From: an uncultured Candidatus Saccharibacteria bacterium | GTDB lineage: Bacteria; Patescibacteriota; Dojkabacteria; J137 | Assembly (NCBI GenBank): GCA_964607415.1 | Contig: CAZSKK010000002.1 | Span: 158,380-222,379, forward strand | Reading direction: 5' to 3' | Length of the DNA stretch: 64,000 nucleotides | Shown here: piece by piece, positions 34,232 to 39,515 of the stretch | Layout of the letters: each line of letters begins with the position of its first letter | How positions within the stretch are numbered: the first letter of the stretch is position 1 | Translations under genes and position numbers: made by a program | The notes under the pieces: model-generated | Told to the model about the DNA's origin: nothing | The model's input: only the letters and a program-made list of their open reading frames with translations | Databases searched by the model: none

Positions 34232-35347
34232 ATGCCACGAGCCTTAATATCTGCAGCACATACTCTAATGGTCCCTGGACAGATTTTTCAGGATCTTAGA
34301 GAAGCAGATTTAACCAGAAAAATTGTTAACAAAATGGTTCCTCACCTTGAAAAAACAGGTATAACTTTCCAGGCCGTTCCATTGGATCTTATTCTTACTG
34401 ATAGAATTGAATGGATTAATAACTCTGGCTATTCCGAAGATACAGATGATATCCTAGTTGAAATTCATGTTAATGATGGAGGTAAACGCGGAATTGAGGG
34501 TTGGTTTAGCGAAGAAGCAAACCCAGGAAATCGATCCCAAATTCTAGCAGATTACCTTCTAAAAGAAGTATGTACTGCTACAGGATATACTAATCAAACA
34601 GCCAAAAGTGAACTTCAGCATGAATTGACCTCATTGGTTATTCTTAACCAGACTAATACTATTTCTGTAGCACTGGAATGCCTATATATTGATAATCCCG
34701 AAGATATTGCAATTTTGAAAGATGATAAAAAGCTTGATGATCTTGCAAAGGCACTTGCTGAAGCAATTGCAAAATACATTAAATCAGACAGTAGTAAAAA
34801 ACCTGCTAATGCAAAGCCTAAGGCAAAACCTGACCCAGTTTTCAGCCCTAAACCCCCTTTTGGTGGTTTACCTTCATTGGGAGGATTAGGTGGTGGATTT
34901 GGATCACCTAGTGCATCTAGTACTTCCCCTTCATCCGGATCAAGTAATCTTATGATGGATAGGGAACAAAGAAAAAAAATGATAAATGATACTTACACTA
35001 AAATTTTAGGAAAAGAGCCTAATGCTAACGATTTAAATCAGAATTTGAATACAGGTGTTTCCGAAGAACAGTTAATCAAAAAACTTGTTGATTCTAAAGA
35101 TTTTGAAACAATGGTAAAAGATGCAAAAGATGCAAAAGATTTGCGCAATAAATCTACTCAAATGGAAGCAGATGTTGCAAGACTCCAGGCAGAAAGTAAT
35201 GACTTAAAGGCTATTAATGCTAATCTAAATAGACTTCTTCAGCATAAAAATATGACCATCACAAAAATGCAGCAGGAAATGGTTAGCCGTGGTGTTTTAA
35301 AACCTGGTGAATTCTTTGATTTAGGTTCTACACAAACTCAACGTTAG
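34232..35347 (+). CDS. N-acetylmuramoyl-L-alanine amidase (Amidase_3) with low-complexity linker and C-terminal DUF4214-like/coiled-coil region
   Basis: ISAAHT...VEIHVNDGG...LECLYIDNPED are Amidase_3 zinc-ligand blocks. A Pro/Gly/Ser-rich linker is followed by a C-terminal helical domain. Confidence 0.55.
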   Translation: MPRALISAAHTLMVPGQIFQDLREADLTRKIVNKMVPHLEKTGITFQAVPLDLILTDRIEWINNSGYSEDTDDILVEIHVNDGGKRGIEGWFSEEANPGNRSQILADYLLKEVCTATGYTNQTAKSELQHELTSLVILNQTNTISVALECLYIDNPEDIAILKDDKKLDDLAKALAEAIAKYIKSDSSKKPANAKPKAKPDPVFSPKPPFGGLPSLGGLGGGFGSPSASSTSPSSGSSNLMMDREQRKKMINDTYTKILGKEPNANDLNQNLNTGVSEEQLIKKLVDSKDFETMVKDAKDAKDLRNKSTQMEADVARLQAESNDLKAINANLNRLLQHKNMTITKMQQEMVSRGVLKPGEFFDLGSTQTQR

Positions 35348-35737: not shown

Positions 35738-37285
35738 ATGGACGGCTTAAGTATTGTACTAATAACCACCTTCGCAATAACTACTGTTGCAGGTGTTGCT
35801 GGTAGTGTCTTTAGCTTTAAGGAACTTAAAAAAGCTAAATTTGATCTATCAAAAAATAAAGGTGTAGTTCTTTCAGAAGAGGAGGCTATAGAAAAAGCAA
35901 GCCAAATTGCTAAATCTAAAATCCTTGAGGCTGAGAAAAAAGTTCTAAGTTTAGAAAAGACTGCTCAAGAACAAGCAGCTTCTGTCAGAGAAAAGTTCAA
36001 GGAACAAGAAATGCTTCTTGCTGAAAGAGAAAGAAATCTCGTTGATAGAAATAAAACTTTGGATAAAAGATTTGATGAAATCGAAGAAAAAGAGAAGAGT
36101 CTAGATCAAGCGAAAAGAGATGTAAAAAATGCAAGACAGCAGTTATCAGAGCAGCTTGAAAAAATAGCTAAATTAACTAGAGCTGAAGCTGAAGCTTTGC
36201 TAAAAGAAGAAGTCGACAAGGATCTTGGCGACTGGAAAGCAAAAAAAATTAAAGAGTCAAAGCAACAAATTGAATTTGAAGCAGATGAGATTGCAAAGAA
36301 AGTTTTAGTTGAAACAATGCATAATGCAGCAACTGACTATGTTGCAGAAACAACTACAACTACACTTACAATTGATGATGAAACTCTAAAGGGTAAAATT
36401 ATTGGTAAGGATGGTAGAAATATCAGAACATTCGAAAAGTTAACTGGAGTTGATGTAATAATCGATGAAGCTCCTAATCAAGTTACTCTTTCATGTTTTG
36501 ATCCAATCAGAAGAGAAGTTGGTGCAATTGCAATGAAAAAGCTTCTTCAAGATGGAAGAGTTCACCCAGGAACTATAGAAGAAACAGTAGAAAAAGTTAA
36601 AAAAGATCTTCTTAAAGAAATTAAAAAAACAGGTGAAGAAATTGCATTTGAAACAGGATTTAACGATTTACCAACTGAAATTATAATGCTTTTGGGTAGA
36701 TTCAAATATAGATTTAGTTACGGACAAAATCTTGTAAAACATACCTTGGAAATGGTTAAGATTGGGGAACAGCTTGCTATGGAAGTTGGAGCTGATGTCC
36801 AAACCGTAAAACTTGCATGTTTGCTACACGACATTGGTAAAGTTGTCCCTCAAGAAGGAAAGCAACACCACCATATTTCTGCAGATATTGCTAGAAAATA
36901 CTACAAAGACGATAGACTAGTAAACGCAATTGAAGCTCATCACTATGATATTGAATCTAAAAGTGTGGAAGCAGAACTTGTAAGAATAGCTGATGCAATT
37001 TCTGGAGCTAGACCTGGAGCAAGAAGAGATAGCTACGAAGACTATGTAAAAAGAATTAGAGCTTTAGAAGATATTGCAAAAAATCAAAAAGGTGTTGAAG
37101 CAGCATTTGCAATCCACGCAGGCCGAGAGGTTAGAGTTTTGGTTAAACCAGATCAAGTTACAGATAAGGATGTTGATACAATGGCATTTGAAATTGCAAA
37201 AGAAATTGAAAAAACTCAAAGCTACCCAGGAGTGATTAAGGTAAACGTAATTAGAGAATATAGGAAGACTGAAGAGGCAAAATAA
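35738..37285 (+). CDS. rny: Ribonuclease Y
   Basis: N-terminal TM, coiled coil, KH domain GKIIGKDGRNIRTFEKLTGVDVIIDE, and HD domain LLHDIGK. Confidence 0.85.
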   Translation: MDGLSIVLITTFAITTVAGVAGSVFSFKELKKAKFDLSKNKGVVLSEEEAIEKASQIAKSKILEAEKKVLSLEKTAQEQAASVREKFKEQEMLLAERERNLVDRNKTLDKRFDEIEEKEKSLDQAKRDVKNARQQLSEQLEKIAKLTRAEAEALLKEEVDKDLGDWKAKKIKESKQQIEFEADEIAKKVLVETMHNAATDYVAETTTTTLTIDDETLKGKIIGKDGRNIRTFEKLTGVDVIIDEAPNQVTLSCFDPIRREVGAIAMKKLLQDGRVHPGTIEETVEKVKKDLLKEIKKTGEEIAFETGFNDLPTEIIMLLGRFKYRFSYGQNLVKHTLEMVKIGEQLAMEVGADVQTVKLACLLHDIGKVVPQEGKQHHHISADIARKYYKDDRLVNAIEAHHYDIESKSVEAELVRIADAISGARPGARRDSYEDYVKRIRALEDIAKNQKGVEAAFAIHAGREVRVLVKPDQVTDKDVDTMAFEIAKEIEKTQSYPGVIKVNVIREYRKTEEAK

Positions 37286-37344
37286 ATAGATATCATGTGA
37301 GCACGAAGAGCGAGCATAGAATAGATATACTTATCCAGCGAAAT

Positions 37345-37378
37345 AAAAAAGCCGCGACATCAATGTCGCGGCTTTTTT
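37345..37378. terminator. Bidirectional rho-independent terminator between rny and the HEPN-nucleotidyltransferase gene
   Basis: aaaaaa-GCCGCGACA-tcaa-TGTCGCGGC-tttttt is a perfect 9-bp GC stem flanked by an A-tract and a T-tract. Confidence 0.8.
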
Positions 37379-37404
37379 ATTTCTCAAAATTCTATATATT
37401 TTGT

Positions 37405-38229
37405 TTAATTTACAATATCCTTAAACCTCTTTTCATAAATAACTCTACCCTCGCCTATTGCTGTTTCCAAATATCCTTCGCCTTCCTCTTTTAAAAGCCA
37501 GTCAAACTCATCTGGTGTATATACTAAAGGCTCAATAATTGGGTCCGTACCTTTTGTTAAATCTCTGACAAATTGAATTCTTTCTATAAATGGTGTTTTA
37601 GTATTTGCTACAATTAAAATATCCATTGTAGAACTTTTTGGTCTTACTTTATCTCTTGCAAATCCTCCGTAAAGAATTATTTTCTCTACATCGAACTCAT
37701 CAATTGCTGTTAAAATCTCCACTATTTTTTGAATTCTGTCTTCAATTTCTGCGCCAGTGTAATAATATTCCTCTAAATCAACAAGCTTTCCATCACCTTT
37801 AGAAATTTTACCTTGTTGAATAAACTCCGAAATTTTTTTATAAATCTCAGTTGAAAGTTCTATACAAGTCTTTGCGTCTTTTTGATCTATAAATTCGTGT
37901 GGGGACTTGTTTTGCCCAGGAATTATGAATGGATATCTAGAGATAAAAGTATAAGCTTCAATTTTTCTGTAATCAAGCTTAACATCAAAAAACAGTTTAT
38001 TAGCTCTGTTTGCAAGCCCCATTAAAACTCCAAGTTTATGAACCTTTGGAGGTGGAAAACCCGCATGTACAATAACTGCTTTTATACTTTTTTCTACACT
38101 TTGCGTGGATTGGTAACAAGCCCATTCGAAGTTTCCTGATTTTAATGAAATTTCTGCAGCTGCCAAATCATATCTGGCCTGCTCCAACCAGACAAGAAAA
38201 CGGGTACGTTGTTTTTCTGCTTGTGTCAC
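37405..38229 (-). CDS. Single-chain HEPN-nucleotidyltransferase (minimal nucleotidyltransferase, MNT) fusion protein
   Basis: N-terminal HEPN-like helical domain (ARYDLAAAEISLKSGNFEWACYQSTQSVEKSIKAVIVHAG ... ISRYP). C-terminal Pol-beta-type NTase motif ILYGGFARDKVRPKSSTMDILIV. Confidence 0.55.
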   Translation of the reverse strand: MTQAEKQRTRFLVWLEQARYDLAAAEISLKSGNFEWACYQSTQSVEKSIKAVIVHAGFPPPKVHKLGVLMGLANRANKLFFDVKLDYRKIEAYTFISRYPFIIPGQNKSPHEFIDQKDAKTCIELSTEIYKKISEFIQQGKISKGDGKLVDLEEYYYTGAEIEDRIQKIVEILTAIDEFDVEKIILYGGFARDKVRPKSSTMDILIVANTKTPFIERIQFVRDLTKGTDPIIEPLVYTPDEFDWLLKEEGEGYLETAIGEGRVIYEKRFKDIVN

Positions 38230-38243
38230 TTTAAAAAGTTTAA

Positions 38244-39515
38244 CTATCTTAAGTAATCTTTTAAAGCCTGGGCAATCTCGTCACTCTTCATTCTCTTTAA
38301 TGCTTTTGCTTCAATTTGTCTAATTCTTTCTCTTGTTACATTAAATTCATGTCCAACCTCTTCTAAGGTTCTTGCCACTCCATCTCTTAAACCAAATCTC
38401 AATTCTAGCACTTTTCTTTCTCTATCTGATAAGCCGTCAAGGATTTCATTAATTTGTTTTTTTAAGAATGACCATGTAGCTAATTCTTCTGGAGGTGCTG
38501 TAAATTCATCAGGAATAATATCTATAAGACTATTTTCTTGTTCCTCGCCAATTGGCATTTCAAGTGATTGCGGTTTTTGAGCTATTTTAACAATCTCCTG
38601 TACTTTATCTACACTTATCTCCATTTTATCAGCAATCTCTTTGGTTGTCGGTTTTCTACCTAAAGTTGATGCTAGCTGTGAAGATACTTTACTTAATTTA
38701 TTAATTGTTTCAATCATGTGAACTGGAACCCTTATTGTTCTAGCTTGATCAGCTATAGCTCTAGTTATCGCCTGTCTAATCCACCATGTAGCATAAGTCG
38801 AAAATTTAAAGCCTTTTCTATACTCGAATTTTTCTACCGCTCTCATCAAACCAAGATTTCCTTCCTGAATTAAATCTAGCAGGTCTAAGCCTCTTTTTAG
38901 GTAATTCTTTGCGATAGATACTACAAGCCTTAAATTTGCAGTAGTTAACAAATGCTGTGCTTCTATGCCATCTCTAATAGCTTTATTAATATATTTTTTA
39001 TCTTTATTAATTATTTGCCTTTTAGCTTTTTTTACCTCAGAAGATTTAACTTCCCCTATCTTAATATTCTCTAATGCTTTAACATAAACATCCTCCTTTG
39101 TTTCCTTTGCTAATTTTTTTATGATTTCGATAAGTTCATTTTCTCCATCTTCAATTCTTTTTGCCAAAATTACTTCTTCTTCTGCACTCAAAAGTGGAAT
39201 TTTTCCTATTTCTTGAAGGTAAGCCCTTATAGGGTCTGTACTTATGTGTGACCTTATCTGTTTTAATATTCTAATCTTATCCTCAAAGGTCATTTTATCT
39301 TTTACACTTTCTAATGAAACTTCAGCTGTATCTAGAGGAGATATAATCTCAACTTCGCTGTCTTGGAGGACATCTATAATATATTCTAAAAGTTGTAAAT
39401 CTTCTTCAATCTCAGGGAAAACGCTCAAAATATCGTCCTGTGAAAGATATCCCTGCTTTTTACCAAGAATCAAAATATTTTCAACCTTCTGTTTATCTTC
39501 TGGATGAATGGCCAT
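38244..39515 (-). CDS. rpoD: RNA polymerase sigma factor (sigma-70/RpoD)
   Basis: Region 2 [37 protein letters not shown]. Region 4 [15 protein letters not shown]. Confidence 0.85.

What the first reader, a model, noticed from the sequence alone, without database searches (positions are those of the whole stretch)
37405..38229. Single-polypeptide HEPN-nucleotidyltransferase fusion convergent on rny
HEPN and minimal nucleotidyltransferase (MNT) domains normally occur as separate toxin/antitoxin genes. Here a HEPN-like N-domain and a Pol-beta NTase (GG-x9-13-D-I-L-I-V motif) are in one 274-aa chain, in HEPN-to-NTase order. This is opposite to kanamycin-nucleotidyltransferase-type proteins. The gene shares a strong bidirectional terminator with RNase Y and sits next to rpoD. 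A fused, possibly self-regulating RNase/NTase in an RNA-metabolism neighbourhood is unusual.
Basis: partly seen in the sequence, partly recalled or inferred. Interest (0 to 1): 0.5.

Follow-up and report, generated by a model that had tools for sequence, protein, structure and literature searches.

The report
Domesticated fused HEPN–nucleotidyltransferase gene (Dojkabacteria)
The gene is real and does join a HEPN domain to a small nucleotidyltransferase in one protein, but it is a conserved chromosomal descendant of a common two-gene module, and because the key catalytic residues of both halves are changed it is unlikely to be a self-regulating RNase toxin.

Summary

The "self-regulating RNase/NTase" reading is not supported. 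None of 119 family members has an Rx4-6H RNase motif. The NTase DxD is T-x-D in 117 of 119.

The family is single-copy and has host-like GC. It is under strong purifying selection (dN/dS about 0.06) and is syntenic across Candidatus Dojkabacteria. The fused forms are monophyletic. They sit inside CPR two-gene HEPN-then-MNT pairs at the same locus, and those are sister to canonical PF05168/PF01909 ("Class II HEPN/MNT") pairs in many phyla.

The ancestral context is recA, a 198-aa gene, then this gene converging on rny. The rpoD adjacency is derived.

HEPN–MNT fusions are documented and abundant, mostly in MNT-to-HEPN order.

Best reading: a domesticated, non-toxic, two-domain nucleotide-binding or weakly transferring protein. 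Its substrate is unknown. It is a new variant of a known kind, of modest interest.

The parts
37405..38229 (-). Coding sequence of the fused HEPN-MNT protein (274 aa, GTG start, stop at 37405-37407)
   Evidence: ORF list. There are 127 homologues of 260-290 aa with the same two domains. dN/dS is 0.058 against the 87%-identical orthologue L087.
37831..38193 (-). HEPN domain (residues 13-133), PF05168 / HEPN-T type
37930..37938 (-). R98-Y99-P100 codons (AGA TAT CCA). This is the position of the HEPN Rx4-6H motif, but no His follows within 4-6 residues
   Evidence: Sequence read directly. R, Y and P are each present in 119 of 119 members. Positions 103-105 are never His. H111 (R+13) is present in 115 of 119 and H64 in 119 of 119.
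37756..37815 (-). Inter-domain linker (residues about 139-158), lower model confidence and poorly conserved
   Evidence: pLDDT blocks of 77-79 for residues 141-160. Variable and gapped columns in alignment A1.
37429..37755 (-). Minimal nucleotidyltransferase (Pol-beta fold) domain, residues about 159-267
37663..37668 (-). G188-G189 codons (GGA GGA), the equivalent of the hG[GS] nucleotide-binding motif
   Evidence: G188 is present in 119 of 119 members. Position 189 is S in 68, R in 31, G in 16 and T in 4.
37621..37629 (-). T201-M202-D203 codons (ACA ATG GAT), the equivalent of the catalytic D-x-D with the first Asp replaced by Thr
   Evidence: The MAFFT alignment with canonical two-gene MNTs places S-D-[IL]-D against S-T-M-D. 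T201 is present in 117 of 119 members (S in 2), D203 in 119 of 119, and position 205 is never acidic.
37531..37533 (-). E233 codon (GAG), the third catalytic carboxylate in the I-E-P-L-V-Y-T strand
   Evidence: E in 118 of 119 members and D in 1. It is conserved in all outgroup MNTs.
37340..37383 (.). Bidirectional intrinsic-terminator hairpin shared with rny. The G+C stem is 37351-37359 and 37364-37372, with an A-tract upstream and a T-tract downstream
   Evidence: RNA folds of -30.8 and -31.7 kcal/mol on the two strands, z = -9.0 and -7.8. It is not conserved in orthologous loci.
38244..39515 (-). Context: rpoD (sigma-70). It is co-directional, and its stop lies 14 nt upstream of the HEPN-MNT start, so co-transcription is possible
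   Evidence: ORF list. It is 73-79% identical to genes carrying Sigma70_r1-r4 Pfam hits in syntenic loci. The adjacency is present only in the window-like sub-lineage.
35738..37285 (+). Context: rny (RNase Y), convergent with the gene
   Evidence: ORF list. Orthologues carry RNase_Y_N, KH and HD Pfam hits. rny lies downstream and convergent in 35 of 53 CPR loci, covering both fused and split forms.

Best explanation
[quoted passage not shown] It is specific to Candidatus Dojkabacteria (CPR).

Shown: the ancestor was an overlapping two-gene HEPN-then-MNT pair. That pair sat at the same locus, downstream of recA and converging on rny. In the CPR lineage the first Asp of the MNT D-x-D changed to Thr, Ser or Glu. 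The two genes then fused once. The HEPN half lacks the Rx4-6H RNase dyad. Both halves are under strong purifying selection.

Inferred mechanism: the protein no longer works as a toxin-antitoxin pair. It works as a two-domain, KNTase-like nucleotide-binding unit. The MNT half (G188, T201, D203, E233) still binds a metal-NTP. The hydroxyl at position 201 is strictly conserved, which suggests it replaces a carboxylate ligand. The HEPN half (E46-K47-x2-K50, H64, R98-Y99) provides dimerisation and the acceptor or ligand pocket. Transfer of a nucleotidyl group, to the protein itself (for example Y99) or to an unknown cellular substrate, is probably slow or altered compared with canonical MNTs. I rate the identity and evolutionary history at about 0.9. 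I rate 'not an RNase toxin' at about 0.8. I rate retained nucleotide binding, with or without transfer, at about 0.4-0.5.
For: The family comprises 127 homologues of the same length and architecture, and the named ones are all Dojkabacteria. In GTDB genomes 42 loci carry a single fused ORF. Eleven CPR loci carry two overlapping ORFs. The non-CPR loci in Planctomycetes, Asgard archaea, Chloroflexi, Dehalococcoides, Thermodesulfovibrio and others are two-gene pairs.

In an NJ tree the fused forms are monophyletic (37 of 37), nested among CPR split forms, and that clade is sister to the canonical pairs. The outgroup pairs are PF05168 (115 bits) plus PF01909 (49.7 bits).

Motif census: Rx4-6H in 0 of 119; T201 in 117 of 119; D203 in 119 of 119; E233 in 118 of 119; G188 in 119 of 119. 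The alignment to the canonical GS-x10-D-x-D is, and the CPR split forms carry T, S or E at that site.

Selection and origin: dN/dS is 0.058, with HEPN at 0.062 and NT at 0.073. GC is 33.9% against 33.0% for the window, and there is one copy in the window. Core-gene synteny appears. There are no full-length matches on plasmids or phages.

Literature: fused HEPN domains typically lack RNase residues and represent domesticated TA systems (PMC3710099). Class II HEPN proteins lack RX4H but keep a conserved Tyr (PMC7641770). D39, D41 and D71 of MntA bind two Mg2+, and the D39E/D41E mutant abolishes AMPylation (PMC7641770).
Against: No biochemical data exist for any PF05168/PF01909 module, so the substrate and even the direction of action are unknown.

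The loss of one of the three metal-binding carboxylates, together with variability at the second position of the G[SG] motif (S, R, G or T), could mean that catalysis is gone entirely.

The equivalence of E46/K50 with KNTase E145/K149 is recalled from published structural comparisons. My hhalign run did not confirm it (probability below 1%).

Invariant H64 and near-invariant H111, together with R98, could still form a non-canonical RNase site.

The NJ tree has no support values.
Confidence: 0.55

Rival explanations
1. Pure pseudoenzyme. Both halves are catalytically dead. The protein acts only as a nucleotide- or RNA-binding regulator or scaffold, possibly linked to RNA turnover or to RecA-related functions.
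For: Both catalytic signatures are eroded: no Rx4-6H, T-x-D instead of D-x-D, and variable S, R, G or T after G188. The Pfam NTase score falls from 49.7 bits in canonical MNTs to 29.2 in CPR split forms and 23.4 here. [quoted passage not shown] Strong purifying selection shows that some function is kept.
Against: D203, E233 and G188 are invariant. Position 201 is restricted to hydroxyl or carboxylate side chains (T, S or E) across CPR forms. That is the pattern expected of a site that is still a ligand, not of one released from constraint.
Confidence: 0.3
2. One reading: an active single-chain toxin-antitoxin, an FhepTA-like type VII system in reversed order. The HEPN half would be an RNase held in check by self-AMPylation from the NT half.
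For: The domain pair is the same as in HepT/MntA and FhepTA (PMC7641770, PMC13000451). Y99 is invariant next to R98. There is structural similarity to MntA and to an AMPylated HEPN toxin. There are weak PADLOC hits to the candidate defence family PDC-S09 on the NT half (E=8e-6).
Against: There is no RX4HXY motif and no GSX10DXD motif. The NCBIfam MntA equivalog scores 12.4 bits against a cut-off of 60. The HEPN domain is of the PF05168 type, not DUF86. The gene is single-copy, syntenic and has host-like GC, with dN/dS of 0.06. It is absent from plasmids and phages.
Confidence: 0.07
3. Non-canonical RNase. R98 together with H64 and/or H111 would form an alternative HEPN active site, with the NT domain as a regulatory appendage. 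It might act with or alongside RNase Y.
For: H64 is present in 119 of 119 members and H111 in 115 of 119. [quoted passage not shown] The convergent arrangement with rny is kept in 35 of 53 CPR loci.
Against: No HEPN RNase with such a site has been demonstrated. H111 is absent from most outgroup HEPN proteins. Convergent neighbours do not share a transcript. The shared terminator is not conserved. The rny linkage is explained by general synteny.
Confidence: 0.07
4. Artefact: a sequencing or assembly frameshift that merged two separate genes.
For: Related CPR genomes do carry the two halves as separate overlapping ORFs.
Against: The single ORF is intact in the window and in more than 40 independent genomes, including complete chromosomes. 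The fused genes carry an extra linker and are monophyletic.
Confidence: 0.01

Closest known systems
Class II HEPN/MNT two-gene modules (Pfam PF05168 + PF01909; COG2250 + COG1708), as defined by Yao et al. 2020 (PMC7641770) and Makarova et al. 2009 (PMC2701414)
   Same: Both domain families are the same. The HEPN half lacks RX4H but keeps the R-Y motif and the conserved Tyr. The MNT subfamily signatures are shared (FGSFAR, F..RI, IEPLVYTP.EF). Direct homology is 31-39% identity to HEPN-then-MNT pairs in many phyla.
   Different: Here the two genes are fused into one chain with an added linker. The first Asp of GSX10DXD is Thr. The gene is single-copy, syntenic and vertically inherited in a reduced CPR genome, rather than mobile, patchy and multi-copy. 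Class II modules themselves have never been characterised experimentally.
FhepTA, the fused MNT-HEPN toxin-antitoxin of Shewanella prophages (Yao et al. 2026, PMC13000451)
   Same: A single polypeptide of about 275 aa that combines an MNT domain and a HEPN domain and is derived from a two-gene pair.
   Different: FhepTA is MNT first and HEPN second, with a 3-5 residue linker. It has a DUF86-type HEPN with an active RxxxxH motif and an adjacent Tyr, and a canonical NTase motif. It self-oligoAMPylates and is carried on mobile elements. None of these features holds here.
[quoted passage not shown]
   Different: RX4HXY and GSX10DXD are both absent here. The gene order is reversed. There is no mobility. 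The NCBIfam MntA model is not matched.
Kanamycin nucleotidyltransferase ANT(4') and related aminoglycoside/lincosamide nucleotidyltransferases
   Different: The domain order is opposite. KNTase has D50-x-E52. There is no significant sequence-profile similarity. No evidence points to an antibiotic substrate.
Single-chain MNT-to-HEPN(PF05168) fusions, and rare HEPN-to-MNT fusions, in metagenomic and genomic proteins (for example WP_304765917.1 of Candidatus Burarchaeum)
   Same: The same two domain families in one chain of 230-290 aa. The Burarchaeum protein has the same HEPN-first order.
   Different: All of these keep the canonical GS..DxD. They arose by independent fusions and are not close relatives: E-values are 1e-15 to 1e-29, against 1e-60 or better within the family.

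Membership tests
HEPN domain, PF05168 (HEPN-T) | Pfam profile score above the gathering threshold | tested here: met
   80.8 bits against a cut-off of 22, E=1.1e-22, residues 13-133.
HEPN domain, PF05168 (HEPN-T) | Helical-bundle HEPN fold | tested here: met
HEPN superfamily RNases | Rx4-6H catalytic motif | tested here: not met
   R98 is invariant, but positions R+5 to R+7 are I/L/Y, P and G/D in 119 of 119 members, with no His. The nearest conserved His is at R+13.
Minimal nucleotidyltransferase, PF01909 (Pol-beta superfamily) | Pfam profile score above the gathering threshold, and the Pol-beta NTase fold | tested here: met
Minimal nucleotidyltransferase, PF01909 (Pol-beta superfamily) | hG[GS] motif | tested here: inconclusive
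   G188 is invariant. The second position is G here, and S in 68, R in 31, G in 16 and T in 4 across the family.
Minimal nucleotidyltransferase, PF01909 (Pol-beta superfamily) | [DE]h[DE]h pair of catalytic carboxylates | tested here: not met
   T201-M-D203 aligns to the canonical S-D-[IL]-D. T occurs in 117 of 119 members and never D or E within the fused family.
Minimal nucleotidyltransferase, PF01909 (Pol-beta superfamily) | Third carboxylate on a later beta-strand | tested here: met
   E233 in I-E-P-L-V-Y-T is E in 118 of 119 members and D in 1.
[quoted passage not shown] | RX4HXY in the HEPN half and GSX10DXD in the MNT half (PMC7641770) | tested here: not met
   Both motifs are absent. 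The NCBIfam MntA equivalog scores 12.4 bits against a cut-off of 60.
[quoted passage not shown] | A mobile, patchily distributed module, often on mobile elements, with the MNT gene 5' of the HEPN gene | tested here: not met
   Conserved core-gene synteny. Host-like GC and single copy. No full-length plasmid or phage matches. The HEPN half is 5' here.
[quoted passage not shown] | Toxicity of the HEPN half and neutralisation by AMPylation | not testable with these tools
   This requires expression in E. coli and mass spectrometry.
FhepTA (fused MNT-HEPN) | N-terminal MNT, short hydrophobic linker, C-terminal HEPN with RxxxxH and Tyr (PMC13000451) | tested here: not met
   The order is reversed, the linker is about 20 residues, and there is no RxxxxH.
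[quoted passage not shown] | A PF05168 HEPN paired with a PF01909 MNT, with no RX4H and a conserved Tyr in the HEPN half | tested here: met
   Domains. Y99 is invariant and no RX4H is present. The gene is homologous to bona fide PF05168+PF01909 pairs.
[quoted passage not shown] | Two separate genes, and GSX10DXD in the MNT | tested here: not met
   Here the module is a single ORF, and the motif is G[SRG]-x12-T-x-D.
KNTase-like aminoglycoside nucleotidyltransferases | N-terminal NTase with D-x-E, and a C-terminal helical domain that supplies the catalytic base (E145) and K149 | tested here: inconclusive

The most novel reading that the evidence does not exclude
In Dojkabacteria a former HEPN/MNT toxin-antitoxin pair may have been converted into a housekeeping enzyme with a new nucleotidyltransferase active-site chemistry: T-x-D...E, in which a hydroxyl replaces a metal-binding carboxylate. 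It would act on a core cellular target, for example RNA 3' ends or a protein of the RNase Y or RecA pathways beside which it has stayed throughout the lineage. That would give the first physiological role for any Class II (PF05168/PF01909) HEPN/MNT module.
Probability: 0.15. Interest if true: 0.55.

Novelty: new variant of a known kind. Interest (0 to 1): 0.3.

Why it matters
Class II HEPN/MNT modules are among the most abundant two-gene modules in archaea and thermophilic bacteria, yet they have no demonstrated function. This lineage offers a natural experiment. In a genome of about 1 Mb, which tolerates little ballast, the module has been fixed, fused and kept under strong purifying selection while losing the residues expected for both toxin and antitoxin activity. 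If the protein can be expressed, it could show what the PF05168 HEPN pocket and its partner NTase actually bind. It would also add a clean example of toxin-antitoxin domestication. It does not by itself overturn anything known, and the fusion as such is already documented.

Tried and rejected
(1) I ran hhalign of the HEPN and NT sub-alignments against KNTase. I first verified the KNTase sequence against 6un8. The result was not significant (probability 0.3% and 3.4%), so the residue-level equivalence to KNTase E145/K149 is left as unverified inference.

(2) The Foldseek search against AFDB50 could not be run because the library was unavailable. I therefore did not survey UniProt architectures by structure.

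(3) PADLOC gave only weak, generic NTase-domain hits (PDC-S09, E=8e-6). I rejected these as evidence for a defence system.

(4) Plasmid and phage tblastn searches found only half-length two-gene hits on Thermus and Meiothermus megaplasmids, and nothing in phages.

(5) The simple terminator scan missed the hairpin. Direct folding confirmed it.

(6) I tested whether the shared terminator is a family feature. It is not: 6 of 11 orthologous intergenic regions have no strong hairpin.

(7) I tested whether rpoD linkage is ancestral. It is not.

(8) I considered the upstream 198-aa gene as RecX. There was no Pfam RecX hit, only sub-threshold wHTH and NTase hits.

(9) Model coordinates are not exposed, so I could not measure inter-domain active-site distances.

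(10) A literature search for HEPN together with Dojkabacteria found no paper.

Full report
**Observation.** The ORF at 37405..38229 on the minus strand exists as described: 274 aa with a GTG start. Pfam assigns residues 13-133 to HEPN (PF05168, E=1.1e-22, 80.8 bits against a gathering score of 22). It assigns residues 168-214 to NTP_transf_2 (PF01909, 23.4 bits against 21). Polbeta (PF18765) falls just under its threshold.

rpoD ends 14 nt upstream on the same strand, and rny converges from the other side. Between the two stop codons lies a perfect 9-bp G+C hairpin. It is flanked by A6 and T6 and folds at about -31 kcal/mol on either strand, with z = -9.0 and -7.8.

**The family.** A search of 5.8 billion proteins returned 127 homologues. 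Nearly all are 260-290 aa with the same two domains. Every named one comes from Candidatus Dojkabacteria (CPR/Patescibacteria). A census of 119 full-length members gives the following:

- Invariant HEPN residues: W14, Q17, D21, E35, W36, Q43, E46, K47, K50, H64, N74, R98, Y99, P100.
- Invariant NTase residues: G188, D203, F214, R217, Y237, E241. E233 is E in 118 of 119.
- No member has His 4-6 residues after R98. Those positions are I/L/Y, Pro and G/D.
- The canonical NTase D-x-D is T-M-D. T201 is present in 117 of 119 (Ser in 2), D203 in 119 of 119, and the next same-face position is always hydrophobic.
- The residue after G188 varies: S in 68, R in 31, G in 16, T in 4.

I aligned the C-domain with canonical relatives (GSFARGEIHEG-S-D-I-D-LI). 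This shows that T201 occupies the position of the first Asp. D203 is the second Asp. E233, in the IEPLVYT strand, is the third carboxylate.

In MntA the equivalent residues D39, D41 and D71 hold the two Mg2+ ions. Even the conservative D39E/D41E change abolishes AMPylation (PMC7641770, read).

**Origin.** A scan of one genome per GTDB species found 156 relatives. Separate tblastn searches with each domain gave three groups:

- L007-L048 carry one fused ORF. These are Dojkabacteria, including four complete chromosomes with one copy each. Many MAGs labelled 'Saccharibacteria' share the Dojkabacteria synteny.
- L049-L058 and L069 are Dojkabacteria or Patescibacteria loci that carry the two halves as overlapping ORFs in different frames.
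- L059-L086 come from Planctomycetes, Asgard archaea, Omnitrophota, Atribacteria, Chloroflexi, Dehalococcoides, Thermodesulfovibrio, Thermoplasmata and others. They carry two-gene HEPN-then-MNT pairs at 31-39% identity.

The outgroup pairs score 115 bits on PF05168 and 49.7 bits on PF01909. They are therefore the 'Class II HEPN/MNT' modules of Yao et al. 2020. Those authors noted that Class II modules lack RX4H but keep a conserved Tyr and GSX10DXD. No Class II module has been characterised experimentally.

The CPR split forms already have T, S or E in place of the first Asp (RTLDIM, SSIDIL, STIDIL, SEMDIL). The substitution therefore came before the fusion. An NJ tree places all 37 fused sequences in one clade. 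That clade is nested among the CPR split forms, and the whole CPR group is sister to the canonical pairs (no support values were computed).

The two-gene forms share a conserved 58-nt overlap. The MNT ATG sits inside the HEPN D-A-x-K-C codons. The fused genes are about 80-100 nt longer, so the fusion resolved the overlap and added a linker of about 20 residues. That linker has lower pLDDT.

**Context.** I clustered the neighbours over 53 CPR loci and found two arrangements.

- Window-like genomes have ftsZ, sortase (opposite strand), rpoD, then this gene converging on rny, followed by amidase and parB.
- All deeper fused lineages and all split forms have a holA-like gene, an SH3/amidase-like gene, recA, a 198-aa gene, then this gene converging on rny, sometimes with an fni-like gene in between.

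The rpoD adjacency is therefore a derived rearrangement. The convergent pairing with rny is older (35 of 53 loci). It is ordinary synteny among core genes and not an RNA-specific operon. The distance from rpoD to this gene ranges from 7 nt to about 730 nt. Six of 11 orthologous intergenic regions next to rny have no strong hairpin.

The gene has the GC content of its surroundings (33.9% against 33.0%) and is the only copy in the window. Against its 87%-identical orthologue, dN/dS is 0.058, with HEPN at 0.062 and NT at 0.073. dS is about 1.2, which is near saturation. Nothing similar at full length occurs on plasmids or phages. This is the profile of a vertically inherited, functional chromosomal gene and not of a mobile toxin-antitoxin module.

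**How unusual is the fusion?** Anantharaman et al. [quoted passage not shown] They state that HEPN domains fused to MNTs typically lack RNase residues and represent domesticated TA systems. A fused MNT-HEPN toxin-antitoxin, FhepTA, was characterised in 2026.

A profile search of 1.84 billion representative proteins found 8794 hits at E<=1e-3, 735 at E<=1e-10 and 13 at E<=1e-30. About 45 of the top 150 are single-chain MNT(N)-HEPN(C) proteins of 230-280 aa. All of those have a canonical GS..DxD and TRYP[DN].

The HEPN-first order is rare. Outside this family I saw it only in P0142, P0263 and P0155. P0142 corresponds to WP_304765917.1 of the DPANN archaeon Candidatus Burarchaeum. All three have the canonical DxD. 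The distinctive features of this gene are therefore the domain order, the T-x-D site and its fixation as a lineage core gene. The fusion itself is not distinctive.

**Mechanism.** Shown: both domain identities, the loss of the canonical RNase dyad, the loss of one of three NTase carboxylates, purifying selection on both halves, and vertical inheritance.

Inferred: the protein is not an RNase toxin with a built-in antitoxin. The site at position 201 is restricted to oxygen-bearing side chains (T, S or E) across CPR forms, while D203, E233 and G188 never change. This looks like a metal-nucleotide site that is still used, perhaps with hydroxyl coordination as in P-loop NTPases. That comparison is from my own knowledge and is an analogy only.

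I therefore favour a KNTase-like two-domain nucleotide-binding unit with reduced or altered transferase activity. In this picture the HEPN half provides dimerisation and the acceptor pocket.

A fully dead pseudoenzyme that acts as a nucleotide- or RNA-binding regulator is the main rival. A non-canonical RNase built from R98 with H64 and/or H111 cannot be excluded. The substrate is unknown.

**Verdict.** Its interpretation as an unusual self-regulating RNase/NTase is not borne out. It is a domesticated, fused and catalytically altered member of the uncharacterised Class II HEPN/MNT group. I class it as a new variant of a known kind, with interest of about 0.3.

Noticed in passing
L026, L028-L058 and L069, immediately upstream of the HEPN gene (e.g. 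L034:3353-3952, L049:3229-3822); no homologue in the window: A conserved protein of about 198 aa always sits between recA and the HEPN/MNT gene in the ancestral context (31 loci). It looks like an N-terminal winged-helix domain plus a C-terminal degenerate NTase-like strand (D[VI]DL[VL]I[IV]G). All Pfam and NCBIfam hits are sub-threshold (HVO_A0114 E=0.02, NTP_transf_2 E=0.2, ArsR E=0.06). It may be a third component or regulator of the module.
   Followed up: partly
L049, L051, L054, L055, L059, L062, L069, L071, L076 (junction of the HEPN and MNT ORFs): Two-gene HEPN-then-MNT pairs share an identical 58-nt overlap, from Planctomycetes, Omnitrophota and Thermodesulfovibrio to the CPR. The MNT ATG is embedded in the HEPN D-A-x-K-C codons, so about 19 codons are read in two frames. 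This is an unusually long and deeply conserved gene overlap. The Dojkabacteria fusion resolved it.
   Followed up: partly
P0127 (391 aa, ENA contig of 1408 bp): A protein in which a PNPase/RNase PH-like N-terminal part runs directly into the C-terminal NT domain of this family (…KIILFGSYAREVPAKKTGTMDILII…). It is probably an assembly or gene-call chimera on a short contig. I did not check it further.
   Followed up: no
L007, L012-L014, L017, L018, L021, L025 and others (record titles): Many MAGs titled 'uncultured Candidatus Saccharibacteria bacterium' carry the Dojkabacteria-type synteny (ftsZ, sortase, rpoD, this gene, rny), with 74-79% RpoD identity to the window. Their taxonomic labels are probably wrong.
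   Followed up: no
window 34232-35347 (+): The gene between parB and rny encodes an Amidase_3-type N-acetylmuramoyl-L-alanine amidase N-domain. It is followed by a Pro/Ser/Gly-rich low-complexity stretch and a long coiled-coil-like C-terminal region. The orthologue in L003 carries a PF01520 hit. This is an unusual architecture for a cell-wall amidase.
   Followed up: no
window 37405-38229 and L087:890-1714: The start codon is GTG in the window and TTG in the closest orthologue. No obvious Shine-Dalgarno sequence lies in the 14-nt spacer after the rpoD stop. Translation may be coupled to rpoD in this sub-lineage.
   Followed up: no
P0150, P0164, P0247, P0228 and P0220, P0169: Besides HEPN-MNT fusions, the representative library holds tandem MNT-MNT and HEPN-HEPN single-chain proteins of the same subfamilies. 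Several second MNT copies have degenerate motifs, for example DDDVELLV and ESNVNLLV.
   Followed up: no
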